From the NCBI GenBank assembly GCA_018333525.1, contig JAGXTF010000076.1, forward strand, positions 57,424-121,423: a DNA stretch of 64,000 nucleotides, in the 5' to 3' direction. The DNA comes from Bacteroidota bacterium (GTDB taxonomy: Bacteria; Bacteroidota; Bacteroidia; NS11-12g; UBA955). The position numbers and the translations under genes were made by a program. Positions within the stretch are counted from its first letter, which is position 1; every line of letters starts with the position of its first letter. The notes under the pieces were generated by a model. It searched no databases and was not told where the DNA came from. It saw nothing but the letters and a program-made list of their open reading frames with translations. Shown in pieces: positions 4,017 to 19,011 of the stretch.

Positions 4017-5117
4017 CTAATTGTATATGAGAATTTGAAATAAATCTTGCTCATTTAGGTTTGGATATAACAATTGAAGATAAGTAAGCATATTTTCCTG
4101 AGTTGTGCAACTCCTTACAAATTCTCTATACTTTGAAATACCAAAGTCACGTTTTACCTTATCCAACACCAAAGCAGCTACAACATAATGCCCTCTCATA
4201 GATCCAAAATCCATATTGTTAAATTTCCAAAAAGCCTCAAATGTTTGAATTGAATTTGTCTGCAATGTATTTCTAACTTTTTGGCTCAATTCTTTATAAC
4301 CTGACTTTCCAGTACCGCCATAATACGTGGCCAATCCTTCAGCTATGAAATTACAGGTTTTGAGGTAGATAGCAAAATGTAACAATTCATGTACATGAAA
4401 AGGTTGTGAAATACCGGATAAGACTATCCGGTTATAAGGATCAGCCATTCCACCATAAAAAGCATAAATATTAAAATAATTGGATTGTGCCAATGTACCA
4501 ATATATCTATCCACATCTGGAAAGCTAAAACTTGAAAATGAAACTATTTGTTGATTATAAAATGAATCCAAACTTAGATCTAAATCTTTCATTGCAAATT
4601 TTATTCTTGAATAACCTTTTTTCAATCCTTTCTCATTAATTCTAAAATATGAAGGATGATAAATTAATATATTTTTGTACTTTCTAGATTCCCATTGATA
4701 ATAGTTCACATCTGAAAAGTCGGAAATCTTAAGTGATTTCATATTAAACAATACCGAATATTGCATCCAGTCCAAGTCCAGCTGAAATGCATATTGAGAA
4801 TCGGTGTACTTTTGTTTCCCAATTAAATTATAATTAAAGGCCATATGAAATGGGATATCTACTCCTTGAATAAAATTGAAAGAGATTAATGGATGTTTCC
4901 TATCCTTGCATATATTACAATCTGAAAAATATATCGCACTGTCTGTTCCATATGAAGACATTAATCCATACCAACATTTGTCAAATTTCAAAACAGTTGA
5001 ATCAATCTCAAGTGAATCCCGAACATTAATTATTTTTAGACCGTAGTTCTGACCGTTTGCTTTTTGCAGAAAAATTAAGAAAAAGGTAATAATTGTTGCG
5101 AATCTCCCGAATTTCAT
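4017..5117 (-). CDS. Secreted hypothetical protein with an HExxH motif; putative zinc metallopeptidase.
   Basis: N-terminal signal peptide 'MKFGRFATIITFFLIFLQKANGQ'. Single HExxH in 'FHVHELLHFAIYL', with a downstream Glu in 'IAEGLATYYGG'. No family could be assigned by eye. Confidence 0.45.
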   Translation of the reverse strand: MKFGRFATIITFFLIFLQKANGQNYGLKIINVRDSLEIDSTVLKFDKCWYGLMSSYGTDSAIYFSDCNICKDRKHPLISFNFIQGVDIPFHMAFNYNLIGKQKYTDSQYAFQLDLDWMQYSVLFNMKSLKISDFSDVNYYQWESRKYKNILIYHPSYFRINEKGLKKGYSRIKFAMKDLDLSLDSFYNQQIVSFSSFSFPDVDRYIGTLAQSNYFNIYAFYGGMADPYNRIVLSGISQPFHVHELLHFAIYLKTCNFIAEGLATYYGGTGKSGYKELSQKVRNTLQTNSIQTFEAFWKFNNMDFGSMRGHYVVAALVLDKVKRDFGISKYREFVRSCTTQENMLTYLQLLYPNLNEQDLFQILIYN

Positions 5118-5254: not shown

Positions 5255-5995
5255 TTAAAGTGCTTCCAGCATTTTTACAACCTCAGCGCGGCGCCGGGTG
5301 CTTACAGGAATGGTTGTATTGTCTTTCATCAATAAATGTCCACCATCTGTTTTTACAAATTCCGTTATGAATTTTGTATTTACCAAATGGCTTTGGTGTA
5401 CCCTGAAAAATCCCAAAGGAGTTAATATATCTTCATATTCCTTCAGGGTTTTGGTTACCAGTAATTTTTTATTATTTGTAAAAAAGAATTCGGTGTAATT
5501 CACACTGCTTTCGCACCGGATGATTTCATCAATATTTACGATATGAATTTTATCCAGAGTGTTCAGTGCCAGGCGTGTTTGTGGCTTATTCCCGGATTTT
5601 AATGTTTCATTTAGAAAATTATACTTGCTGCTTTCATTTTTTTTCTGATTTCTGGCCTTATCCAATGCCTGAACCAATTCATCCGGATCTACCGGTTTCA
5701 TCAGATAATCGATAGCTGCATAACGAAATGCCTTGATTGCATGGGCATCATAGGCTGTAATAAATATAATGCGAAATGGGATTTGGGGTAGAATATCCAA
5801 CAAATCAAAACCGCTTCCATCCTGCATTTGAATATCCAGAAAAACAATATCAGGACTGGTATTTCGAAGTAACCTCGCTCCTTCCACCACACCAGATGCC
5901 TCTCCTATTATTTCAATATCCGGTGCATAGGTTTCCAAATCCTTTTTCAGTGTATTTCTCGCTTGTTCCAGATCGTCAATTAAGATGGCTTTCAT
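5255..5995 (-). CDS. Two-component response regulator, LytTR family (REC + LytTR DNA-binding domain).
   Basis: REC domain 'MKAILIDDLEQ...FLDIQMQDGSGFDLL'. C-terminal LytTR domain 'IHIVNIDEIIRCESSVNYTEFFF...FFRVHQSHLVN'. Its start overlaps the stop of the upstream kinase gene. Confidence 0.85.
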   Translation of the reverse strand: MKAILIDDLEQARNTLKKDLETYAPDIEIIGEASGVVEGARLLRNTSPDIVFLDIQMQDGSGFDLLDILPQIPFRIIFITAYDAHAIKAFRYAAIDYLMKPVDPDELVQALDKARNQKKNESSKYNFLNETLKSGNKPQTRLALNTLDKIHIVNIDEIIRCESSVNYTEFFFTNNKKLLVTKTLKEYEDILTPLGFFRVHQSHLVNTKFITEFVKTDGGHLLMKDNTTIPVSTRRRAEVVKMLEAL

Positions 5996-5996
5996 T

Positions 5997-8900
5997 TTAA
6001 CTAATTGGTATTTCTATTGTAATTTTTGTTCCACAGGGAATCCCCTGTTTGCTGTATAAATCCTGTATATCTATTTTGGGTTCTGCATTACCGGGATCCA
6101 TCAACATCAGCCTTTCGCGAATCACCTTCAGTGCCGTACTTTCATGGTAACTCTCTCCTTCGCTGTCTGCCCGCTCCTGCGCGATCTCTCGTCCCACTCC
6201 ATTGTCTGAAATGGTACATATGAGTTTGTGTTCTAATTCCCTGAATTCTATCAGAATATTTCCACGTCTTTGTTGAAGGTTTTTAAACCCGTGTTTGATG
6301 GAATTCTCCACAAAAGGCTGTAATAACATGGGCGGTATTTTGATGAAATCCATATCCATATTTGGATCCGTATTTATCTCATAATCAAAGGTGTCACCGC
6401 TGCTGAATTTCTCCACCAACAAATAGTTTTCCAATGTTTCCACTTCTTCTTTCAGCGAAATATATTGCTTTCTGGAATTGTCCAGAATCTGTCGCATCAA
6501 CCTACCGAATTTCGCCAGATAATAACGAGCGCGCTGTTCATTTTGCTCTCCAATTTGAGACTGTATGCTATTGAGCGCGTTAAAAATAAAATGCGGATTC
6601 ATTTGCAATCGCAATGCCTGATGTTCCAAATCCGAAACTTTTTTGTCCAAAATAAGTCTGGTTTCCGCTTCGCGGGCTTTCTTGCGAAGTGTATTGAATC
6701 GGGCACGAAAAACAATCCAAATAATAAAAGCTAAAATGGTAATTATCATTGTCCGAAACCACCAGGTTTGCCAAAATGGTGCATGTATGGAAACAGGGAT
6801 GGAAAGTGGTGTCTGGTTCCAAACCCCATCGCTGTTTCTCGCTTTTACCAAAAACACATAATCTCCTGGAGGAATGTTAGAATAGGTAACATAATTCTGT
6901 CTGCTTTCCGGCGACCATTGTGGATCGAAACCCTGCAGCTTCCATTGGTATGCTACATTTCCCGGATTGGAAAAAGAAATTGCCCTGAGGTCAAAAGTGA
7001 TGTGATTCTGATCATGAGGCAAATCCAGAAGTTTAACTTCTCCCCAGTTAGATATAGAACTGTGAAAGGTGGTTTGCGAAATGTTTTTATAAAATAAGCG
7101 TATACCGGATAAACCCAATGCAGGTGCTATCGGGTTTTTCGTAAATGCCGCCGGATTGCATGAAGTAAGTCCGTTCACTGTTCCGAACCATATATTCCCG
7201 TTGACATCTTCTGCAACCGCATTCTGGCAGGTTTCAATTCCTAAAAATCCCTCACTTTTACCATAATGTTTAACAGAAATCCATTTGCGATTTTTATCCA
7301 GTTCTATGTAATCTAAACCTGATTCCGAGCCCAAAAAAACATTTCCTTTTGTATCGAAGGCAATGAGATACATATTTTGGGAAGTCAATTGTTTATTGCG
7401 CTCCCTGAATGCCGATATCTGGGGAATTTCACCCGGTTTCCAGCAATATACTCCTTCACCCGCAGTACCCGCCCATAAATAACCCAAACGGTCCATCACC
7501 AGTGATCTTAATGGAATATTTTTTAATACTGCCGAAGTTGAATGATGTTTTAATTCTCCTTTTTCAAATATACCTACCCCATTACTTTCAGTAGCATACC
7601 AAATATTTCCGGAACCGTCTTCACAAACAGAAACCAATCGGTTACTCAAAATACCTTCAGCCTCAGTGTAATGACTCATCACCAAATTTTCCGGATCCTT
7701 CTCTCCTTTTTCCAAATGGTACAATCCAAGGCCTGCCGTTGCCACCCAAATGCTTCCATCCTGTGAAAGACACATTCCGCGAACGAATGCATTTCTCAAT
7801 AATTTTATTTTTTGTATATGAAAACTATCGCTCCTGATGAATTTCATTTGATACAATCCATCCCCTTCCGTACCCAGATAATAATTACCCGAACCATCTT
7901 CTAATATGGATTTTACTTTGGTATTGATAAATCCATTCTCTGCACCGAATGTTTTGAATTTCCCGCTATCCAGGAGCGCAATTCCCAAATTTGAGGTACC
8001 TGCCCAAATTCTTTTCTTTTTGTCTGCAAACACGGAATAAATAAAATTCCCGGGCAACCCGCTTTCTCTGTCGTAATGCGTAAATGGCATTCCAAAGTAA
8101 TGACAGACACCACCACCGGAAGTACCAAACCAAAAATTCCCTTCCCGGTCTGAAATGATACAACGCACATGGTTATTGCACAGGCCATCCTTTTCCCTGA
8201 TATTGGTAATTCTTTTTGTTAAAGTATCATACCTGTAAATTCCCTGACTCAGGGTTCCAAACCAAAATTCTCCTTTTTTATCTTGATAAATTTCATACAC
8301 TTCTTTCATTTCAGGGAATTTTCCTGGAAGAAACTGCCTGAATTTATCATTACTCCAATAAAACAATCCATTGCCATAAGTACCAACCCAAATCTTTCCG
8401 GAATGGTCACAATAAATTTTATTGATATATCTACCTGATAAAAATAAATCTTTTTTATTGCCCGATTGCAACCGATAAACACCTTTTGCTGTGCCAAACC
8501 ATATTTTGTCGTTCCGATCTGCCGCTACTGAGTAAACGGCCTCTGAAACGAATGCCAGTTTTTCAAATACTGAAGCTATTTTAACGAATGGTTTCGGAAC
8601 ATGCAATTGAAACAATCCTGTACCTGTTGCTGCATACAAGGTCCCATGCGAATCCAAACATATGTCAAAAACATCCGAGAGGTTTCCGGTATTTCTGAAA
8701 TTTATGAAGCTTTTCCCATTAAAATAACTGATTCCACCACTTGTTGCAATCCACAAATTCCCGTTTTTATCTTCAATTATTTTATATATATAATTATTTA
8801 CCAGGCCTTCTTTGGTGGTGTAATGGGTAAATTCCACACCATCAAAACGGGTTAAACCACCACCCCGGGTTCCCATCCACAAATAGCCACGGCGGTCCTG

Positions 8901-9032
8901 CAACAAACTAAAAACCTGCGATTGCCCAATTCCTTCTTTCACCGAATAGTTGCGCATTTGATATTGTTGCGCATTTAACCGCATGCACCAAATACTCAGA
9001 ATCAGGCAAACATATGTTGCAGTGGTTTTCAA
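5997..9032 (-). CDS. Sensor histidine kinase with a large periplasmic two-component-regulator beta-propeller/Y_Y_Y domain, a TM segment and a LytS/YehU-type kinase core.
   Basis: Signal peptide is present. Repeated propeller motifs include 'LWMGTRGGGLTRFDG', 'IWFGTAKGVYRL' and 'FWFGTSGGGVCHY'. A TM helix 'MIITILAFIIWIVF' follows. The His_kinase motif 'NPHFIFNALNSI' and the HATPase motif 'DNGVGRE' are present. Confidence 0.8.
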   Translation of the reverse strand: MKTTATYVCLILSIWCMRLNAQQYQMRNYSVKEGIGQSQVFSLLQDRRGYLWMGTRGGGLTRFDGVEFTHYTTKEGLVNNYIYKIIEDKNGNLWIATSGGISYFNGKSFINFRNTGNLSDVFDICLDSHGTLYAATGTGLFQLHVPKPFVKIASVFEKLAFVSEAVYSVAADRNDKIWFGTAKGVYRLQSGNKKDLFLSGRYINKIYCDHSGKIWVGTYGNGLFYWSNDKFRQFLPGKFPEMKEVYEIYQDKKGEFWFGTLSQGIYRYDTLTKRITNIREKDGLCNNHVRCIISDREGNFWFGTSGGGVCHYFGMPFTHYDRESGLPGNFIYSVFADKKKRIWAGTSNLGIALLDSGKFKTFGAENGFINTKVKSILEDGSGNYYLGTEGDGLYQMKFIRSDSFHIQKIKLLRNAFVRGMCLSQDGSIWVATAGLGLYHLEKGEKDPENLVMSHYTEAEGILSNRLVSVCEDGSGNIWYATESNGVGIFEKGELKHHSTSAVLKNIPLRSLVMDRLGYLWAGTAGEGVYCWKPGEIPQISAFRERNKQLTSQNMYLIAFDTKGNVFLGSESGLDYIELDKNRKWISVKHYGKSEGFLGIETCQNAVAEDVNGNIWFGTVNGLTSCNPAAFTKNPIAPALGLSGIRLFYKNISQTTFHSSISNWGEVKLLDLPHDQNHITFDLRAISFSNPGNVAYQWKLQGFDPQWSPESRQNYVTYSNIPPGDYVFLVKARNSDGVWNQTPLSIPVSIHAPFWQTWWFRTMIITILAFIIWIVFRARFNTLRKKAREAETRLILDKKVSDLEHQALRLQMNPHFIFNALNSIQSQIGEQNEQRARYYLAKFGRLMRQILDNSRKQYISLKEEVETLENYLLVEKFSSGDTFDYEINTDPNMDMDFIKIPPMLLQPFVENSIKHGFKNLQQRRGNILIEFRELEHKLICTISDNGVGREIAQERADSEGESYHESTALKVIRERLMLMDPGNAEPKIDIQDLYSKQGIPCGTKITIEIPIS

Positions 9033-9203: not shown

Positions 9204-11516
9204 ATGATTCGAAGAATCACCAGACATTTTCGAAAACGCTATCGCATTTATCTTGCTGTAATCCTTATTTTTTCTATCTGGTATATCTTTTGTCTGCCCA
9301 CTAAACCATTTAACGGACCTTACAGCACCGTTCTGTATGATAGAAATGGACAAATGCTGGAGGCAAGAGTTGCTAAAGACGGGCAATGGCGTTTTCATTC
9401 TTCACACCAGTTTCCGGAAAAACTGAAGGTTGCAATTATCGAATTTGAAGATCGTGGGTTTTACAAGCATCACGGCATTAGTATGCGGGGCATTGGAAGG
9501 GCCATTTCACAAAACTGGCGCAACAAAAGAATGGTAAGCGGAGGAAGTACTATTACCATGCAGGTGGCAAGAATGTTATGCAAACACAAAAGCAGAAATA
9601 TTTTCAATAAAATCCATGAGATGATTATCGCCACAAGGTTGGAAATTCGGTATTCCAAATCTGAAATTCTGGATATGTATTTGTCCAATGCTCCTTTCGG
9701 GAATAATGTTGTGGGTGCTGATGCTGCGGCCTGGCGTTATTATGGACGAAATGCCAACAAACTCAGTTGGGCAGAATGCGCAACCCTGGCCGTACTTCCA
9801 AATGCTCCCGGATTATTATACCCGGGCAAGAATCAAATAAAGCTAACCGCAAAAAGAAATCGGCTATTAAAAAGACTATTCGATAATAAGCAATTGGATG
9901 CCACACAAATGGAACTGGCATTTTGCGAAAAAGTACCCGGAAAACCATTGCAATTATTGTCTGCAGCACCTCATTTGATGGCCACATTAATGCAACAAAA
10001 CGGAAGAGGAAATACCTATGAAAGTACCGTAGACAAAAGTCTTCAGGATCAGGTTTTGCGCATTGCCCAAAGACACCATCAGGTACTTTCCGGAAATCAG
10101 ATTATGAATGGTGCCGTATTGGTAAGTTCTACAAAAACAGGAGAAATTCTGGCGTATATCGGAAATATTTCTGAGCGAAATTTGCAGGAAGGTAGTGAGG
10201 TAGATTGCGTATTAGCGGCCAGAAGTTCGGGAAGTATATTAAAGCCATTACTGTATGAAAGCAGCATGGAGGCAGGTATCATCACTCCAAAAACCCTGTT
10301 ATATGATGTACCCAGTCAATTTGGAAATTATGCGCCCAAAAATTTTAACAAAAAATTCGAAGGTGCAATTCCGGCAAACCAGGCACTGAGTCGCAGTCTG
10401 AATATTCCATTTGTTTTGTTGCTCAATGATTATGGTAACGCGCGTTTTAGAGACAGAATTTACAATTGGGGTCTCTCACATATTCAAAATAATGCAACCC
10501 ACTACGGACTAACATTAATTCTCGGAGGTGCAGAAGTTACTTTGATGGAAATGACCAATGCGTATAGAAATCTCGGTGCTGTAGCTTCCAATCAAAGCCC
10601 TTCAGAATTGCAAATTCTACGCAATAAAAAATCTTCAAAAAAATACCCGAAATGGAATCGGGAATGTGTATTGGCAACTTTGGATGCCCTGACAGAGCTG
10701 AACAGACCGGATGAAGAAGGCAATTGGAAATTGTTTGAATCCGCCAGAAAAATTGCCTGGAAAACAGGTACAAGTTTTGGATTTCGCGATGGTTGGGCAA
10801 TTGGAATTACACCGGAATATACAGTTGGTGTTTGGATCGGAAATGCAAACGGAGAAGGGCAGGCAGGTCTCACCGGCAGTAAAGCAGCAGCACCATTAAT
10901 GTTGGATATATTTTCAGTTTTGCCCGGGAAAAATGCATGGTTCCCACAGGGATTTCATATGAAAAAAATTGCGATTTGTTCGGAAACCGGAAATCCCGCT
11001 TCCAGCAGTTGTCCGCATGTATCGGAACAATTATTTCCGGAATCCTGTGAAAATGTAAAACCCTGTAGAATGCATCAAATTTTACATTTAAGTCCGGATA
11101 AAAAATACCAGGCAAATACCAATTGTTTTGCAGTAAATGCGTTGCAATCGGATACATTTTTGCTCCTACCACCTTTGGTGTTGCGTTACTATAAAGAACA
11201 TCATATGATTCAAGATGTTCCGGAATACTTCCCGGGCTGCGGCATTACAGAAAATAATATTCATATCATTTACCCGTTGTCGGGGTCTCAAATTATTTTA
11301 TCCGACCCAAAATCCAATGCTGCGGGTGAAATGGTATTAGAAATTACACATCGCGATTCAGAAGCAGAAGTATATTGGCATCTGGATGAAAACTATATGG
11401 GTTCAACAAAAACCATTCATCAAATGCTGGCACATCCTGACCCGGGAAAACACAAGTTAACTGTTACGGACAATCTCGGACAACACAGCAGTGTGCAATT
11501 TACCATTGCACCTTAA
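9204..11516 (+). CDS. pbpC: Penicillin-binding protein 1C (transglycosylase + transpeptidase).
   Basis: GT51 motif 'GGSTITMQVARML'. Transpeptidase motifs SxxK ('SGSILKP') and KTG ('WKTGTSFGF'). Length and a C-terminal PBP1C-type domain fit. An A2M gene lies upstream. Confidence 0.8.
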   Translation: MIRRITRHFRKRYRIYLAVILIFSIWYIFCLPTKPFNGPYSTVLYDRNGQMLEARVAKDGQWRFHSSHQFPEKLKVAIIEFEDRGFYKHHGISMRGIGRAISQNWRNKRMVSGGSTITMQVARMLCKHKSRNIFNKIHEMIIATRLEIRYSKSEILDMYLSNAPFGNNVVGADAAAWRYYGRNANKLSWAECATLAVLPNAPGLLYPGKNQIKLTAKRNRLLKRLFDNKQLDATQMELAFCEKVPGKPLQLLSAAPHLMATLMQQNGRGNTYESTVDKSLQDQVLRIAQRHHQVLSGNQIMNGAVLVSSTKTGEILAYIGNISERNLQEGSEVDCVLAARSSGSILKPLLYESSMEAGIITPKTLLYDVPSQFGNYAPKNFNKKFEGAIPANQALSRSLNIPFVLLLNDYGNARFRDRIYNWGLSHIQNNATHYGLTLILGGAEVTLMEMTNAYRNLGAVASNQSPSELQILRNKKSSKKYPKWNRECVLATLDALTELNRPDEEGNWKLFESARKIAWKTGTSFGFRDGWAIGITPEYTVGVWIGNANGEGQAGLTGSKAAAPLMLDIFSVLPGKNAWFPQGFHMKKIAICSETGNPASSSCPHVSEQLFPESCENVKPCRMHQILHLSPDKKYQANTNCFAVNALQSDTFLLLPPLVLRYYKEHHMIQDVPEYFPGCGITENNIHIIYPLSGSQIILSDPKSNAAGEMVLEITHRDSEAEVYWHLDENYMGSTKTIHQMLAHPDPGKHKLTVTDNLGQHSSVQFTIAP

Positions 11517-11681
11517 TTATTTTTTTTGGGATCAAGTTCCACCACTCTCATACATTCAGGTTTCCAACTATCCATACTTGTAAATTTAAATTCAAAAAGG
11601 ATGAACAATGTGAAATTGCAATCCATAACTGGGACCATTTAATCGGATCCGGAGTTGTTGATTAATTGTATTTTTGCGGCA

Positions 11682-12602
11682 ATGTCAGCATACAAATTTG
11701 CAATACACGGTGGAGCAGGTACCATAGAGAAACATATGCTTTCACCCGAACAGGAATTGGCATATTTAAACGGACTTCAAAGTGCTTTGGAAAAAGGCAA
11801 AACAATTCTTTCAAATGGAGGCACAGCATTGGATGCTGTAGAACAGGCTGTTATTCTTTTAGAAAATAATCCCCTTTTTAATGCGGGTAAAGGTTCTGTT
11901 TTTAACCATGAAGGGAAACATGAAATGGACGCAGCAATAATGGATGGAAAAAATCTCAAGGCGGGTGCAGTAACTTGTATTTCAAACATTCGAAATCCTA
12001 TTGAACTTGCAAGAAAGGTAATGGATGAAAGCGAACATGTATTACTAAGCGGCGCCGGGGCTGAATCCTTTGCAAAGATGAAAAATATGAATTTTGAAAG
12101 CGATACTTATTTCCATGATGAATACCGTTTTGATCAATGGCAGGAAATTAAAAATACAAACAAAACTCAATTGGATCATACGGAAAAAAAATTCGGAACA
12201 GTAGGTGCTGTCGCTTTGGACATCCACGGGAATCTGACGGCAGCGACCAGTACCGGCGGTATGACCAACAAGCGCTGGGGTAGAATTGGCGATACTCCGA
12301 TAATTGGTGCCGGAACCTATGCAAATAACCAAACTTGCGCCATAAGTTGTACCGGTCATGGCGAGTTTTATATGCGCGCTGTCGTAGCGTACGACATCAG
12401 TTGTCTGATGGAATACAAACGTCTGAGTTTAAAAGAAGCCTGTGATTTGGTAGTGATGCAAAAATTGGTAGCAATTGGGGGTGAAGGCGGATTAATTGCC
12501 ATTGATAAATATGGAAATCTGGAATTGCCCTTTAACTCAGCCGGAATGTATCGCGGATGGTGTGATGATGCGAATATGGAAACTGCGATTTATTCTGAAT
12601 AA
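11682..12602 (+). CDS. iaaA: Isoaspartyl peptidase / L-asparaginase (Ntn-hydrolase, plant-type asparaginase family).
   Basis: 'AIHGGAGT' at the N-terminus and the autocleavage/nucleophile region 'GTVGAVALD'. The start is placed at the internal Met (MSAYKF...), not the ORF-track start at 11655, by homology with the IaaA N-terminus. Confidence 0.8.
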   Translation: MSAYKFAIHGGAGTIEKHMLSPEQELAYLNGLQSALEKGKTILSNGGTALDAVEQAVILLENNPLFNAGKGSVFNHEGKHEMDAAIMDGKNLKAGAVTCISNIRNPIELARKVMDESEHVLLSGAGAESFAKMKNMNFESDTYFHDEYRFDQWQEIKNTNKTQLDHTEKKFGTVGAVALDIHGNLTAATSTGGMTNKRWGRIGDTPIIGAGTYANNQTCAISCTGHGEFYMRAVVAYDISCLMEYKRLSLKEACDLVVMQKLVAIGGEGGLIAIDKYGNLELPFNSAGMYRGWCDDANMETAIYSE

Positions 12603-15100
12603 TGGCGAACAATGATTTTGGTTTGTCCAAAAGTATTTCCCGAAGCGTATCGCAAAAAATAAATTCCCGACGGATATTGTGTTACAGACATTTCAATGAT
12701 TCCGTCTTTATCTACATTTATTCTGTTCAACCGTTTACCATTCAAATCCAATAAAGCTATTTCTCCGCGAAAAGATTCATTTTTGAACATCAAGGTTTCG
12801 GATACCGGGTTTGGATAAACCTGAAATTGCATTTGCACTTTTTTGCGTACATTTTTTTCATCTTCCAGATTGTTGTTTTCAGCAAACTCAAAAGTAGAAT
12901 AATTTCTATTGGTCGAATCCGGTGAAACTGAATCCGGATAGTGGATGTACTCCTTTAAATACACGGTAGTGATTGGTTTAACCTCCCAATTTTTAAGATT
13001 CATTTTTTGAAAACCGCAATCCGCAATAAAAGTCATTTCCGTAATGGTTCTTAAAATAATGTGATTCAAAAATTCAACCTCATATTGATCTGTGGTAGGT
13101 TCCATATGGTGGTCGCCAATTCCGCTATGGTCTGTAAGAAAAATGGTTTTTCCATTTGTGAGAAGTGCTACATTTCGCATCAGATATTCCAGTGATGCAT
13201 CATATGTACCGCTTGCAATTATCGGAACCATTCGAATCCCTTTTTCGGCGGATTGGATCACCGCATCTCTGAAAATTTTCTGATATTCATCTCCGGATGC
13301 AGGTGGCTCATCCAAAACATGAAATGCAATTCGCATGCTTCCCTCCCTCCAGTTTAGCTGATTCACCGCAGCATCCAATGCCAGTTCTACACTCTCTTCC
13401 CCGCCTTCATTTGCATTTTGACTGCTGATAAATTCGATGGTTTTTTTCGTATCCTTATCGATATCCGATTTTAATACTTTGTACGAACAGCCAGGTGCTT
13501 TATAAAATACGGCTCCCATAGCGAGATCCAAACCCTGATTGCTTTCGTGTAAAGTATTTATTATTTTGTTCAGGTCTTTCTTTAAAAAATCAATTTCATC
13601 TGACATAGAGCCGGTTGCATCTACTATCCACACAACATCTGCTTTTTTATTTGCACCGCATTTTACATCAAAAACTGCACGATTCATTCCCTTAGAAAAA
13701 AGCTTAGGTTCAGATATCCATTGTTCTGAATCTCCAAATTTTACCAATACTTGCTTTGGTGCTTCATCCTCCTCTCCGAATTTCGGATCCAGCCATAACT
13801 CACATTTTCCTGTATTGTCGGTGACTGCTTTATAAGCAGATTTATTGCCACTTTTCAATTCCACTTTAGCTCCCTGAAGTGCTTCACCACGCGTATTCAT
13901 TACCTGCACACAATAGCGATTTTTAGCACATAGTTCCCATTTGCTGCCTGTTTTGAATAATTCATTTGAGTCTGCTGACCACAAATCCCATTTTGCGAAA
14001 TCATCGATAATAGCTGCAGTTAGGGATCCATTAGCAGGTGCGCTTTTGTAAAAAAGCGGAACCGTTTGGTTGCCTGTATTATTCCCGTTTTGCTGTTGCA
14101 TAAATCTGGGATGTTGGTAGTACATAGAGACCCCACCCCAATCCGGACACTTCAAAGGACGGAAAGGTTGAATCCCGGGTGGTACACACCAGGAAATGGA
14201 TGAAGACAATCCATGTTGGGTCCATTCTTTTGTCTGAAAACTGAAATTATTAAAATATTTTATTGAAAATCTTCTATGAATATATCCCGCAATCAGAGAA
14301 AATTCGCTTTGTTTATTTCCCCAATTATACTGATGAAACATCCCGGCAATCGTTTGATTGTTTTCCCATATCAGACCATAATGGATGAGATAATTGCTGT
14401 GAGTCATGATCACCGGACTCAAATAATCCGAATTGAATCTGCTGTGATCCAATTGAAACTTATAACTTCCGTTTATTGAAAATTTTCTTTGAAACATTGG
14501 CATCAGGTAATTCCACGATTGCGAATCTTTCTGAATCACATTCCATGCAGCAATTCCAAATGAAAATTTATCATTATACAGCACAGCACCTGTATTAAAA
14601 TTCAATTGGTGCATTCTCATTTTCAATTCTGCCGGGTTGTTCATTTTCAGTTGCTCATTCAATTGAATAAATTCGTTGGAAAGCAAGTTGAGCTTCGCAA
14701 AAGAGTATCCGGGTTGTACGGCTATTTGTATGAATAACCTGCGGTTGATTGGCAATAAATAATTATAGGTTGTCTGAAATAAATAAGATTGCTGTAATGA
14801 ATTTTTTTCCCTTTGAAAATGAACGGCAAGCGCACCACCAAGCCAGGGCAGATGTTGATCCCATGACATATCCAATTTATTATTGCCATTTAAATTGGTT
14901 CCAAAATTTGAAATCACCCTTCCCGCAGCACCATAATCACAACGTGCAGTGCCGGCAAATGCTGGATTCCAGGACAAAGGTTGCAATATAAATGGTGTAT
15001 TGTGTCCAAGTTGCGCTTTTGTAAAATGAACAAAAAATAACAAAAATAAAAACAGAAATAAAATGCGGGAATTAATTCCAGAGAAAAGCGTATTTTTCAT
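12590..15100 (-). CDS. Large T9SS-secreted mosaic protein: PorP/SprF-like N-terminal region + carboxypeptidase-regulatory-like domain + vWA domain + type-A T9SS C-terminal sorting domain.
   Basis: A signal peptide is followed by 'AQLGHNTPFILQPLSWNPAFAGT', which resembles the PorP/SprF family start (aQQDPqFSqY...NPAyaG). The vWA MIDAS motif is 'VVWIVDATGSMSDE'. The C-terminus 'VYPNPVSETLMF...LLDLNGKRL...SGIYFLR...KIIV' matches the T9SS CTD (TIGR04183-like). Confidence 0.6.
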   Translation of the reverse strand: MKNTLFSGINSRILFLFLFLLFFVHFTKAQLGHNTPFILQPLSWNPAFAGTARCDYGAAGRVISNFGTNLNGNNKLDMSWDQHLPWLGGALAVHFQREKNSLQQSYLFQTTYNYLLPINRRLFIQIAVQPGYSFAKLNLLSNEFIQLNEQLKMNNPAELKMRMHQLNFNTGAVLYNDKFSFGIAAWNVIQKDSQSWNYLMPMFQRKFSINGSYKFQLDHSRFNSDYLSPVIMTHSNYLIHYGLIWENNQTIAGMFHQYNWGNKQSEFSLIAGYIHRRFSIKYFNNFSFQTKEWTQHGLSSSISWCVPPGIQPFRPLKCPDWGGVSMYYQHPRFMQQQNGNNTGNQTVPLFYKSAPANGSLTAAIIDDFAKWDLWSADSNELFKTGSKWELCAKNRYCVQVMNTRGEALQGAKVELKSGNKSAYKAVTDNTGKCELWLDPKFGEEDEAPKQVLVKFGDSEQWISEPKLFSKGMNRAVFDVKCGANKKADVVWIVDATGSMSDEIDFLKKDLNKIINTLHESNQGLDLAMGAVFYKAPGCSYKVLKSDIDKDTKKTIEFISSQNANEGGEESVELALDAAVNQLNWREGSMRIAFHVLDEPPASGDEYQKIFRDAVIQSAEKGIRMVPIIASGTYDASLEYLMRNVALLTNGKTIFLTDHSGIGDHHMEPTTDQYEVEFLNHIILRTITEMTFIADCGFQKMNLKNWEVKPITTVYLKEYIHYPDSVSPDSTNRNYSTFEFAENNNLEDEKNVRKKVQMQFQVYPNPVSETLMFKNESFRGEIALLDLNGKRLNRINVDKDGIIEMSVTQYPSGIYFLRYASGNTFGQTKIIVRHYSE

Positions 15101-15318
15101 TTCTTATTTCAACTATGAAACGCTATGGAGAAAAAATGTTACACTTCAGTTTGACCTGGAATTCAGGAAAAGCACCAAGCGCAACTCTTAAACTACTTGC
15201 CGCAAAATGGAATCTATGAAGATTTAGAAATTACATTAAAGTAACTTACTTTCTATTTTAAGCGCTAAAAACGCAGAATTATAGAAACAATTTAATTGTT
15301 GATACCGTTGCGGCTATC

Positions 15319-16200
15319 CTATTCTAAAGGATGACCAACCGGCACAGGTACATTTCCCTCTGAGAATACCCGCGTTTTAAAATTATAAGTATTTCCCATG
15401 CTTAAAATATGCACTACCAAACCTTCAACAGAAATGGGCATTCCAAATTCGATATCCGCAATATTATTATGTAAAATATGCCTGCCATCTACAATGGTAA
15501 CAGCACCACTTCCAATAGCTTCAATGTCTTCCCCATTGCGAACAATAACACCGGTATCTTCTCCCAATCCGATACCAATTGCACCCGGGTTCGCAGCAAC
15601 TGCCTGCGCGAGGCGTGCAAATCTACCGCGTTTATCGAAGTGAGAATCTACAATTACTCCATTGAGCAAGCCCAAACCGGATGTCATTCTAACTTCACCC
15701 TTGAGATGCGCCCTTCCGGCATTTCCTTCATAAATCATATTATTGCTCATCGCCATAGCACCGGCACTGGTACCTGCAATAATTAAACGCTCATTTTGAT
15801 ATCGGGTTTGTAAAATATCCAGAAAATCTGTTCCTCCAAAAATAGAAGAAAGCCGGAGTTGGTTACCTCCACTAAACAAAATGGCCTGGCATTTTTGCAA
15901 TCTGGGAATGTACTCCGCCACATCTTCTCTATTTCGGATTCGCATATGGCCCACATTCGGATAACCCAATTTTGCAAATGCTTCTCTGTAATTTTCACCA
16001 ATTTCATCCGGAATGGAACTAGCCGTGGTAATTACCTCTATTACCGAATCCTGCGTGGGCAGTAGTTCTGCAATGCGTTTCAGTATACCTATTTCAAAAA
16101 AATGAAGTCGGTTTCTCTCAATAATTCCCGCTTCTAAATCAGTTCCTTTGTCTTCGGCTCCTCCTACTGGAACGAGAATTCCCTTTGGCTGCTGCATCAA
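15319..16200 (-). CDS. cphB: Cyanophycinase (S51 peptidase).
   Basis: 'VPVGGAEDKG', 'FSGGNQLRL' and the Ser-nucleophile context 'IIAGTSAGAMAM'. Size ~290 aa. It is divergent from a cyanophycin synthetase gene. Confidence 0.8.
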   Translation of the reverse strand: MMQQPKGILVPVGGAEDKGTDLEAGIIERNRLHFFEIGILKRIAELLPTQDSVIEVITTASSIPDEIGENYREAFAKLGYPNVGHMRIRNREDVAEYIPRLQKCQAILFSGGNQLRLSSIFGGTDFLDILQTRYQNERLIIAGTSAGAMAMSNNMIYEGNAGRAHLKGEVRMTSGLGLLNGVIVDSHFDKRGRFARLAQAVAANPGAIGIGLGEDTGVIVRNGEDIEAIGSGAVTIVDGRHILHNNIADIEFGMPISVEGLVVHILSMGNTYNFKTRVFSEGNVPVPVGHPLE

Positions 16201-16368
16201 GATGCAAAATTAATTCAGATGTTCCGGAATTATTAACGAATAAATAACATTTGTTGAGCTTTCATGGCTCATATGCTATGGGAAGCAGTATTCGCACAAT
16301 ATTTCCGTAACGAATTGTTTTTGAATTCTTCACCAAATACATAAATTGCCAAACCAAGCAGGCGAAAT

Positions 16369-19011
16369 ATGGAAATTCTGGATATTAAAGTAACAAACGG
16401 ACCAAACTACTGGTCGGTGAAAAGGCATAAACTGGTAGTGATGTTGTTGGACATTGGCGAATTGGAACAGAGACCTACCAACAAAATTCCGGGATTTTCA
16501 GATCGCATTCAGGCACTATTGCCTACCATGTATTCCCATCGATGTAGTGAAGGTGTAGAGGGTGGTTTTTGGAAACGCGTTATTGAAGGTACCTGGATGG
16601 GTCATGTCATTGAACATATTGCCCTCGAAATTCAAACATTGGCGGGAATGGAAGTTGGTTTCGGCAGAACCCGCGATGCCGGCAGAGAAGGCTTATACCA
16701 TGTTGTATTTTCTTATTATGAAGCAAAAGCCGGTGTTTATGCTGCAAAAGCTGCAGTGCGAATAGCGGAAGCCCTTATTGATTCTGAAACCTATGATTTG
16801 GAATACGATATTCAAAAATTAAGGGAAATTCGTGAGGAAGAACGTCTTGGACCAAGCACAGGATCTATTGTGGAAGAAGCAATTCGCAGAAAGATTCCTT
16901 ATATCCGCCTCAACCGACATTCTCTGGTGCAATTGGGTTACGGCATCAATCAAAAACGAGTGAGGGCCACCATTGCCAGCACTACAGGAAGTATTGCGGT
17001 TGAAATTGCCTGTGATAAAGAGGAAACAAAAAATCTACTGGAGGCTGCACAAATTCCTGTTCCAAAAGGCACAATTGTTTACGATGATATTGAACTTGAA
17101 AGGGCCATTAATAAAATTGGATATCCTTTAGTGACTAAACCTATTGATGGCAATCATGGCAAAGGTGCTACAACAGGTATCAACAATTGGGATGATGCTG
17201 TACGCGGTTTACAGGCGGCTAAAAAGTATAGCCGTGGGGTAATTTGCGAGAAATTTATAAAAGGGCTGGACCATCGCATATTGGTAATCAATTACCGATT
17301 TGTTGCTGCTGCATTGCGAACTCCTGCAGCAATAACAAGCGACGGCGTTCACAGCATTCAAGAATTGATTGATATTACGAATAAGGATCCCAGGCGTGGG
17401 TATGGCCATGAAAAGGTTCTTACGTCAATTAAAATTGATGATTTCACCATGAATATCCTTACAGAAAAAGGTCTTACACTGGATTCCATTTTACCAAAAG
17501 GACAGGAATTATGGCTGAAACCGACAGCCAATCTGAGCACTGGAGGAACTGCCACTGATGTTACGGATCTGGTTCACCCGGCCAATGTTTTTATGGCAGA
17601 AAGAATTGCGAAAATCATTGGTCTTGATATATGCGGTATTGATATCATGGCTCCGGATCTGAGCACGCCAATTACAGAAAATGGTGGCGCGGTATTGGAA
17701 GTGAATGCTGCACCCGGATTTCGCATGCACATTGAACCCACTGAAGGAATTCCGAGAAATGTGGCAGAACCTGTAATTGACATGCTCTATCCTCCCGGCG
17801 CTACAGCCCGAATTCCTATAATAGCTGTGAGTGGTACTAATGGGAAAACAACCACCACCAGGCTCATTGCTCATATTGTAAAACAAATGGGACACAAAGT
17901 TGGATATACAACTACCGATGGAATTTATATCCAGAACCGGCTAATGATGTCCGGGGATTGCACAGGTCCGGTTTCTGCAGAATTTGTATTGAAAGATCCC
18001 ACCGTAGATTTTGCTGTTTTGGAATGTGCGCGTGGTGGAATTTTACGCGCCGGGCTTGGATTCCACAATTGCGATGTAGCGGTGGTAACTAATGTTGCTG
18101 CGGATCATTTAGGATTGCAGGGGATTGACAGTTTGGAAAAATTGGCAAGGGTAAAATCTGTTGCTGCAAGAACTGTATTTCCAAATGGATATGCCATTTT
18201 AAATGCGGATGATGATTTGGTTTATGGAATGAAAGAAGATGTGCATTGCAATGTGGCATTATTTTCCATGGATCCCGAGAATCCCAGAATTCGCGCGCAT
18301 TGTGCAGAAGGCGGAATTGCTGCGGTTTACGACAAAGACCATTATTTGTGTATTATGAAAGGCACGTGGAAAATTCGCGTTGAAAAAGCTGCGAATATTC
18401 CACTCACTTTTAATGGAAAAGCGGAATTTAATGTGGCAAATACTTTAGGTGCAATTCTCGCGTGTTTTGTGCGCGATTTTAAAATCGAAGATATTCGCCA
18501 GGCCTTGCAAACTTTTGTGCCATCACCTGCGCAAACACCGGGTCGTTTGAATATGTTCCAATTTAAAAATTACACTGTAATGTTGGATTATGCGCACAAT
18601 GCACATGGCATGCACGCCATCGGAAAATTGGTATCCAAAATTGATGCGGGGAAAAAAGTGGGAATTATTGCAGGAGTCGGTGATCGCAGGGATGAAGATA
18701 CCATTGAACTTGCAGAAGAAGCCGCAAAAGTATTTGATGAAATTATTATTCGTCAGGATAAAAATTTACGCGGAAAAACCGATAGAGAAATTATTGATTT
18801 GCTCACTATAGGAATCAAAAATATCAAGCCGGATTGTGTAATTCATGTCATTCCAAAAGAATCTGAAGCCATTGATTTTGCCATTAAACATGCAGAAAAA
18901 GATTCATTTATTACGATTATTTCTGACGTGGTTCCGGATGCGCTGGAACAGGTGAAGAAACTGAGGGAAGATGAGGAAGAATCATTCGGAAGAGAAGCTG
19001 CAAGAGCATAA
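16369..19011 (+). CDS. cphA: Cyanophycin synthetase (ATP-grasp + Mur-ligase domains).
   Basis: CphA-type N-terminus 'MEILDIKVTNGPNYWSVKRHKLVVMLLDIGELEQRPTNKIPGF'. ATP-grasp region. Mur-ligase P-loop 'VSGTNGKTTTTRLIAHIV'. Length 880 aa. Confidence 0.9.
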   Translation: MEILDIKVTNGPNYWSVKRHKLVVMLLDIGELEQRPTNKIPGFSDRIQALLPTMYSHRCSEGVEGGFWKRVIEGTWMGHVIEHIALEIQTLAGMEVGFGRTRDAGREGLYHVVFSYYEAKAGVYAAKAAVRIAEALIDSETYDLEYDIQKLREIREEERLGPSTGSIVEEAIRRKIPYIRLNRHSLVQLGYGINQKRVRATIASTTGSIAVEIACDKEETKNLLEAAQIPVPKGTIVYDDIELERAINKIGYPLVTKPIDGNHGKGATTGINNWDDAVRGLQAAKKYSRGVICEKFIKGLDHRILVINYRFVAAALRTPAAITSDGVHSIQELIDITNKDPRRGYGHEKVLTSIKIDDFTMNILTEKGLTLDSILPKGQELWLKPTANLSTGGTATDVTDLVHPANVFMAERIAKIIGLDICGIDIMAPDLSTPITENGGAVLEVNAAPGFRMHIEPTEGIPRNVAEPVIDMLYPPGATARIPIIAVSGTNGKTTTTRLIAHIVKQMGHKVGYTTTDGIYIQNRLMMSGDCTGPVSAEFVLKDPTVDFAVLECARGGILRAGLGFHNCDVAVVTNVAADHLGLQGIDSLEKLARVKSVAARTVFPNGYAILNADDDLVYGMKEDVHCNVALFSMDPENPRIRAHCAEGGIAAVYDKDHYLCIMKGTWKIRVEKAANIPLTFNGKAEFNVANTLGAILACFVRDFKIEDIRQALQTFVPSPAQTPGRLNMFQFKNYTVMLDYAHNAHGMHAIGKLVSKIDAGKKVGIIAGVGDRRDEDTIELAEEAAKVFDEIIIRQDKNLRGKTDREIIDLLTIGIKNIKPDCVIHVIPKESEAIDFAIKHAEKDSFITIISDVVPDALEQVKKLREDEEESFGREAARA

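What the first reader, a model, noticed from the sequence alone, without database searches (positions are those of the whole stretch)
12590..15100. Mosaic protein combining a PorP/SprF-like N-terminal region with a vWA domain and a T9SS C-terminal sorting domain
- The protein starts (after the signal peptide, at Gln) with a segment matching the PorP/SprF family start, 'AQ...PF..QPLSWNPAFAG', followed by ~280 aa of beta-strand-like sequence.
- This normally defines a stand-alone outer-membrane T9SS anchor.
- Here it is fused to a CarboxypepD_reg-like beta-sandwich, a vWA domain with an intact MIDAS motif ('DATGSMSDE'), and a canonical T9SS type-A CTD.
- PorP-like barrels usually partner in trans with CTD cargo, so a single polypeptide with both an anchor-like barrel and a cargo CTD is an unusual architecture.
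- It may be a self-anchoring adhesin.
- It is inserted within the cyanophycin locus, and its 3' end overlaps iaaA by 13 bp.
Basis: partly seen in the sequence, partly recalled or inferred. Interest (0 to 1): 0.6.

Follow-up and report, generated by a model that had tools for sequence, protein, structure and literature searches.

The report
PorP barrel fused to T9SS cargo

Summary
ORF 12590-15100(-) encodes 836 aa:
- a signal peptide;
- a full PorP/SprF module, predicted as a 14-strand barrel, with the family's Cys-bearing periplasmic tail (C305-x12-C318-PDW321);
- a 36-aa disordered linker;
- a beta-sandwich, an integrin-beta-like VWA domain (DxTxS MIDAS variant) and a type-A T9SS CTD.

It is not an assembly artefact. 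The identical protein lies on three contigs, both halves share the genome's codon usage, and the cargo half has no signal peptide of its own.

All 54 cargo-family homologues carry a signal peptide plus a CarboxypepD_reg-like domain in place of the barrel. Relatives of the barrel are stand-alone proteins of about 300-350 aa. In a related genome the same cphB-X-iaaA slot holds a stand-alone 354-aa PorP-like gene with no cargo half.

A second, divergent PorP-VWA fusion exists in another MAG and looks independent.

The "self-anchoring adhesin" idea is plausible but untested, and has two problems. The CTD is type A (PorV-dependent), not the type B that PorP/SprF carriers bind. The barrel's C-terminus is periplasmic, so a tether would have to cross the outer membrane.

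This is a new domain-architecture variant of known T9SS parts, of moderate interest.

The parts
12590..15100 (-). Whole CDS, 836 aa plus stop: the PorP/SprF barrel - VWA - type-A CTD fusion protein
   Evidence: ORF list. The identical protein lies on 3 contigs of different length. The 814-kb ENA contig is 100% identical in DNA.
15014..15100 (-). Signal peptide, residues 1-29 (MKNTLFSGINSRILFLFLFLLFFVHFTKA|Q), cleaved before Q30
   Evidence: Read directly from the sequence: charged n-region, hydrophobic core, A|Q site. Q30 is invariant or nearly so in PorP alignments. AF2 models residues 5-25 as a helix. The NCBI 795-aa call starts at residue 42 and omits it.
14138..15013 (-). Complete PorP/SprF module, residues 30-321: NPAFAG motif 45-50 and 14 predicted beta-strands 57-305
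   Evidence: PF11751 31.5 bits, above the gathering cut-off. TIGR03519 E 6.5e-14 over the full profile. 86 stand-alone relatives found by exhaustive phmmer, with C-termini aligning to about residue 320. AF2 pLDDT above 90, 14 strands. Fold matches to OmpG, FadL and PorV.
14138..14188 (-). Tail of the barrel module, residues 305-321: C305-VPPGIQPFRPLK-C318-P-D-W321. This corresponds to the C-x12-C-P-x-F carboxy-terminus of stand-alone family members.
   Evidence: Alignments. 34 of 89 relatives have CPx[FWY], normally as their last residues. The SprF C-tail is periplasmic and its cysteines disulfide-bond to GldK (PMC12635249). The same role here is inferred.
14030..14137 (-). Junction linker, residues 322-357 (GGVSMYYQHPRFMQQQNGNNTGNQTVPLFYKSAPAN): polar and predicted disordered
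   Evidence: pLDDT below 50. Homology to the VWA family begins at about residue 347-358 in the same frame. The first ~12 residues resemble the short extension of P0057 (GGSYHYSTEQISF*) and of P0099 (GGSGGYYASSY).
13670..14029 (-). Helical hairpin plus beta-sandwich domain, residues 358-477 (starts LTAAIIDDFAKWDLW)
   Evidence: Collinear with all 54 family homologues. AF2 strands at pLDDT 83-94. Only weak CarboxypepD_reg, bMG3 and Big_1 HMM hits.
13031..13645 (-). VWA domain, residues ~486-690, with a MIDAS-like D494xT496xS498 and D597
   Evidence: AF2 alpha/beta fold at pLDDT ~90. Foldseek matches to integrin beta I-like, LapA vWFA and SpaC. Invariant DATGSM.DE and D597. Sub-threshold Pfam VWA hits.
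12827..13030 (-). Second disordered linker, residues 691-758
   Evidence: pLDDT below 50 for model residues 364-414. The region is variable in length among homologues.
12593..12826 (-). Type-A T9SS C-terminal sorting domain, residues 759-836
   Evidence: PF18962 40 bits and TIGR04183 35.2 bits, both above cut-off. Seven-strand beta-sandwich in AF2. No type-B CTD hit.
12590..12602 (.). 13-bp convergent overlap with iaaA. The near-palindrome TTATTCTGAATAA makes both proteins end in YSE*.
15319..16200 (-). Cyanophycinase (cphB), the upstream neighbour on the same strand. The cphB-to-PorP-like gene order is conserved in relative L005.
   Evidence: Peptidase_S51. 84% identity to the L005 cphB, which is followed by PorP-like P0057.

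Best explanation
This is a genuine single gene for a chimeric T9SS protein.

Shown:
- A complete PorP/SprF-type carrier (signal peptide, 14-strand outer-membrane barrel, Cys-bearing C-tail) is joined at its very last canonical residue (W321) to a complete type-A-CTD cargo. The join is a 36-residue disordered linker, and the cargo consists of a beta-sandwich, an integrin-beta-like VWA domain and a CTD.
- The cargo belongs to a family whose other members start with a signal peptide plus a CarboxypepD_reg-like domain. The barrel has replaced that N-terminal module.
- The same two families are fused at the same junction in a second MAG, and that fusion appears to be independent.

Inferred mechanism:
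1. The single signal peptide takes the whole chain through Sec.
2. BAM inserts the barrel, leaving the Cys tail and the cargo in the periplasm.
3. The type-A CTD engages the SprA translocon and PorV, and the VWA head is exported.
4. The head stays covalently tied to its own barrel through the long flexible linker. The result would be a cis-anchored, metal-dependent adhesive head.
5. The barrel tail may additionally be disulfide-coupled to the GldK/PorK track, as in SprF.
For: Real gene:
- The identical 836-aa product lies on three contigs (20-50 kb, 50-200 kb, 814 kb) from NCBI, ENA, JGI and Logan sources.
- GC3 and codon-usage scores of both halves fall within the range of the window's genes.
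- There is no relic of the usual N-domain in any frame.
- The cargo half has no signal peptide or start of its own (sequence).

Both halves are intact:
- The PorP HMM matches cover the full profile, and AF2 gives a 14-strand barrel at pLDDT above 90.
- All family-invariant cargo residues are present, the CTD scores above cut-off, and the cargo model has pTM 0.81.

The junction is exact: stand-alone PorPs end at CPxF*, which aligns to C318-W321.

Recurrence:
- P0099 (MAG ES-bin-35) has a strong PorP hit (89.5 bits), followed by a CPSF tail, a Ser-rich linker and 'LTATWLNDFKKWKLWE...RYSVLVLN'. It runs off the contig end.
- Its barrel is far closer to stand-alone P0067 and P0066 (142 and 131 bits) than to ours (46 bits). 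Its cargo fragment is closer to non-fused members than to ours.

Adhesin-like head: fold matches to integrin beta, LapA and SpaC VWA domains.

T9SS in this organism: another type-A CTD cargo lies in the window.

Literature:
- The SprF tail is periplasmic and disulfide-bonded to GldK (PMC12635249).
- PorP/SprF carriers anchor cargo at the surface (PMC9143113).
Against: - Topology: with 14 strands and a periplasmic C-tail, a surface-exposed head requires the linker to re-cross the outer membrane. No route for that is known.
- CTD type: the CTD is type A, which is handled by PorV and not by PorP/SprF carriers (PMC12618676), so nothing indicates that the barrel recognises its own CTD.
- Dispensability: the positional orthologue in a related genome lacks the cargo half entirely, so the fusion is dispensable for the barrel.
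- Few examples: only two are known, both from MAGs, and one is truncated. There is no expression, localisation or processing data.
- Weak support for independence: the claim that the two fusions are independent rests on score ranks and on a 58-aa cargo fragment.
- Cysteine motif: the tail spacing (C-x12-C) differs from the tested SprF C-x-C motif.
Confidence: 0.4

Rival explanations
1. Polyprotein or escort model. The fusion is real and functional, but barrel and head do not stay joined. The barrel supplies the signal peptide and perhaps brings the cargo to the translocon. The disordered linker (322-357) is then cleaved, and the VWA head is exported like any type-A cargo, to be released or attached to LPS after PorU removes the CTD.
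For: This avoids the topological problem of a tether crossing the outer membrane. The type-A CTD predicts the standard PorV/PorU route (PMC12618676). The linker is long, polar and disordered. Non-fused family members work without a barrel, and relative L005 keeps the barrel alone.
Against: No protease site or processing motif was identified. It is unclear why selection would replace a simple signal peptide plus CRD with a 290-aa barrel twice if the barrel is merely discarded. There is no proteomic evidence.
Confidence: 0.2
2. Evolutionary accident with little or no function. A rearrangement placed a 5'-truncated cargo gene in frame behind the resident PorP-like gene. The product is tolerated, or jams and is degraded, and is on its way to loss.
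For: The architecture is extremely rare: two lineages among the roughly 15 billion proteins behind the two search libraries, and nothing more in the genome and metagenome contig scans. The related genome has the barrel gene only. The barrel evolves fast (28-30% identity, against 84-91% for the flanking genes). An 18-nt direct repeat brackets the mature PorP module, which could be a recombination scar.
Against: - There is no decay. The 836 codons are open in a 38% GC gene, all invariant residues of both families are retained, the CTD is above cut-off, and both AF2 models are confident.
- Codon usage of both halves matches the host.
- A second, apparently independent fusion has the same junction logic.
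Confidence: 0.18
3. Periplasmic-head model. [quoted passage not shown] The CTD would act as a docking element for T9SS periplasmic or translocon components rather than as an export signal.
For: This is the default topology for a C-terminal extension of an even-stranded barrel with a periplasmic tail (PMC12635249). It needs no membrane re-crossing.
Against: The cargo half is collinear with a family of ordinary type-A CTD secreted proteins, and its CTD is well conserved. Its VWA domain resembles extracellular adhesin VWAs. No precedent is known for a non-exported type-A CTD protein.
Confidence: 0.12
4. Assembly or sequencing artefact: a chimeric join, or a missed frameshift that merges two genes.
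For: The sequence comes from MAGs, and no raw reads could be checked. All three contigs may derive from one population (100% identity).
Against: - The same junction appears in contigs of three different lengths and pipelines.
- A two-gene model would leave the cargo half without a start codon, signal peptide or N-domain.
- Composition is uniform.
- An independent MAG shows the same fusion.
- In the relative, the PorP gene is followed directly by iaaA, so there is no neighbouring VWA gene that could have been merged.
Confidence: 0.04

Closest known systems
PorP/SprF-family T9SS carrier (shuttle) proteins: SprF of Flavobacterium johnsoniae and PorP of Porphyromonas gingivalis (PF11751 / TIGR03519)
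   Same: Signal peptide with Q at +1, the NPAFAG motif, a ~290-aa module predicted as a 14-strand outer-membrane barrel, and a cysteine-bearing C-terminal tail ending CPx[FW]. Published PorP/SprF proteins are 14-strand barrels with a periplasmic Cys tail (PMC9143113, PMC12635249).
   Different: Known members are stand-alone proteins of ~300-350 aa, usually encoded next to a type-B CTD substrate. This one continues for 515 more residues into a cargo with a type-A CTD. It lies between cphB and iaaA with no type-B CTD gene nearby. It scores below NCBI's TIGR03519 cut-off (52 vs 90.55 bits). Its tail has C-x12-C, not SprF's C-x-C.
Uncharacterised T9SS cargo family: signal peptide - CarboxypepD_reg-like domain - beta-sandwich - VWA - type-A CTD (P0002-P0054, 583-764 aa)
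   Same: Residues ~347-836 are collinear with these proteins at 30-40% identity, including the invariant DATGSM.DE, GG.E and D597, and the CTD.
   Different: Those proteins start with a signal peptide plus a CRD resembling the SusC/TBDT N-terminal extension. Here that module is replaced by the PorP barrel. Their genes have no PorP neighbour in any of the five contexts examined.
P0099, MAG 'Bacteroidia bacterium ES-bin-35' (JACMLS010000944.1)
   Same: The same order of parts: PorP barrel (89.5 bits), C-x12-CPSF tail, a low-complexity linker, then the 'LTA..DF.KW.LW' start of the VWA family. There is no CRD.
   Different: Only ~24% identical. The barrel belongs to another PorP sub-clade. The gene is cut by the contig end after 58 residues of cargo, so its VWA domain and CTD are unseen. 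Its genomic context is different.
Inverse autotransporters (type Ve: intimin/invasin)
   Same: By analogy only: an N-terminal outer-membrane barrel followed by a C-terminal adhesive passenger on one chain, with a linker that must cross the membrane.
   Different: An unrelated 12-strand barrel family (the invasin beta-domain 4e1t matches only at TM 0.31). Its passenger is exported through the barrel and BAM, not through a T9SS. It has no CTD.
OmpA-type two-domain outer-membrane proteins
   Same: By analogy only: an N-terminal barrel plus a C-terminal domain that begins in the periplasm.
   Different: The OmpA C-domain is a periplasmic peptidoglycan binder. Here the C-terminal part carries an export signal and an adhesin-like VWA domain.

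Membership tests
PorP/SprF family (PF11751 / TIGR03519) | Full-length match to the family HMM above the curated threshold | tested here: inconclusive
   Pfam PF11751 scores 31.5 bits, above the gathering cut-off of 22.3, covering profile 13-255/273. TIGR03519 gives E 6.5e-14 over profile 5-287/292, but 52.1 bits is below NCBI's cut-off of 90.55. Exhaustive phmmer retrieves 86 PorP-size proteins.
PorP/SprF family (PF11751 / TIGR03519) | 14-strand outer-membrane beta-barrel behind a Sec signal peptide | tested here: met
   AF2 model with a 78-sequence MSA: 14 strands (57-305), pLDDT above 90, pTM 0.77. Foldseek matches to OmpG, FadL and PorV. This is a prediction, not an experiment.
PorP/SprF family (PF11751 / TIGR03519) | Cysteine-containing periplasmic C-terminal tail (a disulfide to GldK/PorK has been shown for SprF) | tested here: met
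   C305-x12-C318-PDW321 aligns with the family's terminal C-x12-CPxF. Whether it disulfide-bonds to GldK cannot be tested here. The motif spacing differs from SprF's CxC (PMC12635249).
PorP/SprF family (PF11751 / TIGR03519) | Stand-alone protein ending right after the tail | tested here: not met
   The protein has 836 aa, 515 of them beyond the canonical terminus. All other relatives except P0099 are 166-374 aa.
PorP/SprF family (PF11751 / TIGR03519) | Genetic linkage to, and binding of, a type-B CTD substrate | tested here: not met
   The neighbours are cphB and iaaA. No type-B CTD (TIGR04131/CHU_C) hit was found in the protein. Only the immediate neighbourhood was checked, and binding cannot be tested here.
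T9SS type-A CTD cargo | N-terminal Sec signal peptide and a C-terminal TIGR04183/PF18962 domain above threshold, with a beta-sandwich fold | tested here: met
   Signal peptide 1-29 (sequence). PF18962 40 bits vs 27 and TIGR04183 35.2 bits vs 23. Seven-strand sandwich at pLDDT ~85.
T9SS type-A CTD cargo | T9SS/PorV-dependent export and CTD removal by PorU | not testable with these tools
   Needs experiments. The window does hold another type-A CTD protein (58750-61146), which is consistent with a T9SS in this organism.
VWA domain with MIDAS | VWA alpha/beta fold | tested here: met
   AF2 alternating strand/helix pattern across 486-690 at pLDDT ~90. Foldseek matches to integrin beta I-like, LapA vWFA (TMt 0.62) and SpaC. 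Single-sequence Pfam VWA scores are below the gathering cut-offs.
VWA domain with MIDAS | Canonical MIDAS: DxSxS ... T ... D | tested here: inconclusive
   The first motif is D494-A-T-G-S498 (DxTxS), invariant in the family. E569 and D597 are also invariant. Metal binding is plausible but not shown.
Inverse autotransporter (type Ve) | Intimin/invasin-type 12-strand barrel with the passenger linker inside the barrel | tested here: not met
   No Pfam or NCBIfam hit. The barrel has 14 strands. The invasin barrel matches only at TM 0.31.

The most novel reading that the evidence does not exclude
The two fusions are independent, selected solutions in which a T9SS cargo stays covalently attached to a PorP/SprF carrier. 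That would mean a polypeptide tether is passed across the outer membrane at the translocon/carrier interface. It would also mean the barrel's Cys tail couples the whole unit to the moving GldK/PorK track. The result would be a self-contained, one-polypeptide, track-driven surface adhesin that combines a type-A export signal with a type-B-style anchor.
Probability: 0.2. Interest if true: 0.8.

Novelty: new variant of a known kind. Interest (0 to 1): 0.55.

Why it matters
T9SS carriers (PorV for type-A CTDs, PorP/SprF for type-B CTDs) and their cargo are, as far as published work shows, separate polypeptides. A natural carrier-cargo fusion would be a ready-made probe of several open questions:
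- how substrates leave the SprA translocon;
- whether a chain can be handed laterally across the outer membrane;
- whether the type-A and type-B routes can be combined.

The fact that the fusion seems to have arisen twice at the same junction suggests a functional link between this uncharacterised VWA cargo family and an outer-membrane anchor module. If instead the fusion is a tolerated accident, it is only a curiosity in two uncultured genomes.

Tried and rejected
- Frameshift or two-gene model. tblastn of homologues' N-terminal 200 aa against the window found no hidden CarbopepD_reg relic near the gene. Homology starts in frame at ~14056. Rejected.
- Read-through of conserved neighbouring genes. 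Five homologue neighbourhoods (L001, L002, L014, L015, L016) have no PorP gene next to the cargo gene. Rejected.
- DUF4421 as a PorP relative. A 350-aa DUF4421 gene lies directly upstream of the cargo homologue in L014, but shows no detectable relation to PorP (hhalign probability 0.6%). Left as a lead only.
- More fused members. The word-indexed search with the N-terminus, the profile search with both fusions, and the genome and metagenome contig scans found none beyond P0099. The other genome loci are stand-alone PorPs ending in CPxF*.
- P0134. This 4087-aa hit in the exhaustive search is a repeat-rich non-T9SS protein that matches only 70 residues. Judged spurious.
- Foreign origin of one half. 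GC3 and codon scores of both halves lie within the window's range. No support.
- Solved PorP/SprF structure. None was found in the PDB by sequence profile or among the top 50 fold matches.
- Promoter and terminator scan of 12300-16500. No enrichment over shuffles. Uninformative, and the sigma-70 consensus does not suit Bacteroidota.
- Polymorphism between assemblies. L003 is 100% identical, so it carries no selection signal.
- Literature. Searches for a described PorP-cargo fusion found nothing. This is not proof of absence.

Full report
OBSERVATION

HMM scans give two matches above threshold. One is a type-A T9SS sorting domain at 761-832 (PF18962 40 bits vs 27; TIGR04183 35.2 vs 23). The other is a PorP/SprF module at 38-287 (PF11751 31.5 bits vs 22.3). 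TIGR03519 also aligns end to end (residues 13-299 against profile 5-287/292, E 6.5e-14), but at 52 bits it is below NCBI's 90.55 cut-off. No type-B CTD hit appears.

The VWA and 'CarboxypepD_reg-like' assignments are sub-threshold for the single sequence. They are supported by homologues and by structure prediction (see below).

The neighbours are as stated: iaaA (Asparaginase_2) at 11655-12602(+), cyanophycinase at 15319-16200(-), and cyanophycin synthetase at 16369-19011(+). The 13-bp convergent overlap with iaaA is real. It is a near-palindrome (TTATTCTGAATAA), so both proteins end in YSE*.

ANATOMY

Exact positions:
- signal peptide 1-29, cleavage A29|Q30
- NPAFAG motif 45-50
- barrel strands 57-305
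- tail C305-VPPGIQPFRPLK-C318-P-D-W321
- linker 322-357
- beta-sandwich 358-477
- VWA ~486-690, with D494-A-T-G-S498 and D597
- disordered 691-758
- CTD 759-836

AF2 on residues 1-360, with an MSA of 78 PorP-like sequences, gives pLDDT above 90 over ~40-310. It predicts 14 strands and a disordered tail. The best fold matches are 14-strand barrels (OmpG, FadL). The highest query TM-scores are to PorV (0.50-0.53). No PorP/SprF structure was found in the PDB copy, either by sequence profile or among the top 50 fold matches.

AF2 on residues 341-836, with 59 family sequences, gives pTM 0.81. It shows a beta-sandwich, a VWA alpha/beta fold, a disordered linker and a beta-sandwich CTD. The VWA domain matches integrin beta I-like domains and the bacterial adhesins LapA and SpaC.

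The 'MIDAS' is a DxTxS variant rather than the canonical DxSxS. It is invariant in the family.

IS THE FUSION REAL?

The exact 836-aa protein is recorded from JGI, ENA, Logan and GEM. A 795-aa NCBI version (MBS3914575.1) starts at residue 42 and so lacks the signal peptide. The protein lies on three contigs of different sizes, all in the same locus context. The 814-kb ENA contig is 100% identical in DNA to the window.

Both halves have GC3 and codon-usage scores within the range of 26 other genes of the window.

Homology to the cargo family begins in frame at ~14056-14065, and no relic of that family's usual N-domain exists nearby in any frame. A two-gene model would leave the cargo half without a start codon, signal peptide or N-domain. 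I therefore consider an artefact very unlikely, although reads could not be checked.

WHAT ARE THE TWO PARENTS?

The cargo half. A search of 5.8 billion protein clusters returned 54 homologues (30-40% identity, 583-764 aa). All cover only the C-terminal ~57% of our protein. Each starts with a signal peptide plus a CarbopepD_reg_2 domain instead of a barrel. In the five neighbourhoods examined they are stand-alone genes with no PorP neighbour.

The barrel half. An exhaustive phmmer search of 1.84 billion representatives with residues 1-345 returned 88 hits. Setting aside the protein itself, a spurious repeat protein (P0134) and P0099, the remainder are PorP-size proteins of 166-374 aa. Their C-termini align to about residue 320 of ours. 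Alignments show that this subfamily ends in C-x12-C-P-x-F*. Our protein keeps this terminus (C305...C318-P-D-W321) and then simply continues.

The fusion point is therefore precise: a complete carrier, a 36-residue polar disordered linker, then a cargo lacking only its own signal peptide and CRD.

COMPARATIVE EVIDENCE

(a) The best barrel relative is P0057 (354 aa, E 1e-34). It lies on contig L005 from another MAG. There, cphA is 91%, cphB 84% and the iaaA 3' end 74% identical to ours. The PorP-like gene occupies the same slot directly downstream of cphB. It ends with a true stop only ~30 bp from the convergent iaaA end.

This means a PorP-like gene is a resident of the locus, and the relative has no cargo half at all: neither two separate genes nor a fusion. 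The flanks are 72-78% identical in DNA, while the PorP-like gene has diverged almost beyond DNA recognition.

P0057 carries a 13-aa extension past the canonical terminus (GGSYHYSTEQISF*). It resembles the start of our linker (GGVSMYYQHPRF). Whether the cargo half was gained in our lineage or lost in the other is therefore open.

(b) P0099 comes from 'Bacteroidia bacterium ES-bin-35'. It has a strong PorP module (89.5 bits), the C-x12-CPSF tail, a Ser/Thr-rich linker, and then 'GTLTATWLNDFKKWKLWE...RYSVLVLN', which is the start of the cargo family. The contig then ends.

Its barrel is much closer to the stand-alone proteins P0067 and P0066 (142 and 131 bits) than to ours (46 bits, rank 48). Its 58-aa cargo fragment ranks ours 54th of 57. 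This favours two independent fusions of the same two families at the same junction. The evidence is limited, because one fragment is only 58 aa.

No further fused genes were found. This includes the profile search and the genome and metagenome contig scans.

MECHANISM

Published work sets these constraints:
- Type-A CTDs are collected by PorV, and type-B CTDs by cognate PorP/SprF carriers that are usually encoded next to the substrate (PMC12618676).
- PorP/SprF are 14-strand barrels that hold their cargo at the surface (PMC9143113).
- The SprF C-tail is periplasmic, and its cysteines form a disulfide with GldK Cys343 on the moving track (PMC12635249).

Applied here, some steps are reasonably secure inferences. 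One signal peptide serves the whole chain. The barrel is inserted in the outer membrane. The Cys tail, the linker and the cargo start out in the periplasm. The CTD is of the PorV-dependent type.

What happens next is not shown.

My preferred reading (confidence 0.4) is that the head is exported by the T9SS and remains tied to its own barrel. That would make it a cis-anchored VWA adhesin, possibly track-coupled through the tail cysteines. Three observations favour this: both halves are intact, the barrel replaces another N-terminal module while keeping a long flexible linker, and this has apparently happened twice. The weak point is topology, since the linker would have to re-cross the outer membrane by an unknown path.

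The rivals are:
- cleavage in the linker, i.e. a polyprotein or escort (0.2)
- a tolerated evolutionary accident (0.18)
- a periplasmic head, analogous to OmpA (0.12)
- an artefact (0.04)

COMPARISON WITH KNOWN SYSTEMS

The N-terminal half meets most PorP/SprF criteria: the Pfam threshold, the full-length alignment, a 14-strand barrel, the NPAFAG motif and the Cys tail. It fails on two: it is not stand-alone, and it is not linked to a type-B CTD substrate. It also scores below the strict TIGR03519 cut-off.

The C-terminal half is an ordinary member of an uncharacterised type-A CTD VWA cargo family.

The overall layout resembles inverse autotransporters or OmpA-type proteins only by analogy. 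I found no description of a PorP/SprF-cargo fusion in the searchable literature.

VERDICT

This is a new domain-architecture variant built from known T9SS parts. It is rare, apparently recurrent and mechanistically puzzling, but it is known only from MAG sequence. Interest 0.55.

Noticed in passing
window 14036-14053 and 15009-15026: An 18-nt direct repeat (17/18 identical; AGGTGCGCTTTTGTAAAA / AGTTGCGCTTTTGTAAAA) brackets the mature PorP module. One copy lies at the signal-peptide cleavage site (FTKA|QL). The other lies at FYKSAP, where cargo-family homology begins, and is read in a different frame. Expected 0.03 such repeats per region in dinucleotide shuffles. It could be a recombination scar or chance.
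   Followed up: partly
window 12590-12602: The convergent 13-bp overlap of the fusion gene and iaaA is a near-palindrome (TTATTCTGAATAA), so both proteins end in ...YSE*. The CTD is 3 residues longer than in homologues, which end ...H.
   Followed up: partly
window 14978-15100 (residues 1-41): The NCBI annotation (MBS3914575.1, 795 aa) starts at residue 42 and omits the signal peptide. The 836-aa ORF called by JGI, ENA and Logan includes it.
   Followed up: yes
L005 2304-3368 versus window 14038-15100: A PorP-like gene is conserved between cphB and iaaA in a related genome, yet is only 28-30% identical while cphA and cphB are 91% and 84% identical. Why an orphan T9SS-type barrel sits inside a cyanophycin-utilisation locus is unexplained.
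   Followed up: partly
homologues P0002-P0054 (N-termini); P0003, P0030: The N-terminal CarboxypepD_reg-like domain of the non-fused cargo family matches the N-terminal extension of SusC/TonB-dependent transporters (9gbc_A, 8aa4_A, 9hfj_A, 6ytc_A). Some members also carry weak Plug-domain hits. This family seems to borrow N-terminal modules of outer-membrane proteins repeatedly.
   Followed up: no
L014 2549-3601: In one homologue context, a 350-aa DUF4421 gene lies directly upstream of the cargo gene on the same strand. It has no detectable relation to PorP. Whether DUF4421 is an outer-membrane partner of this cargo family was not tested.
   Followed up: partly
window 58750-63102: There is a second type-A CTD protein (798 aa, DUF7619 + Por_Secre_tail, weak SdrD_B) at 58750-61146(-). 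Upstream of it lie an unannotated 451-aa ORF (61143-62498) and an ECF sigma factor (62488-63102). This may be a sigma / anti-sigma / cargo unit.
   Followed up: no
window 67-3945 and 9204-11516: A bacterial alpha-2-macroglobulin and a PBP1C-type penicillin-binding protein lie in the same neighbourhood. They are separated by a large histidine kinase (5997-9032) and a LytTR response regulator (5255-5995).
   Followed up: no
window 14259-14280 and 14472-14493: A 22-nt internal direct repeat (20/22) inside the barrel encodes two similar strand motifs, RRFSIK and RKFSIN.
   Followed up: no
window 37212-39467 and 4017-5117: A 751-aa ORF has only weak CarbopepD_reg_2 and Plug hits and may be a divergent TonB-dependent receptor. 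A 366-aa low-GC (31%) ORF has no Pfam hit.
   Followed up: no
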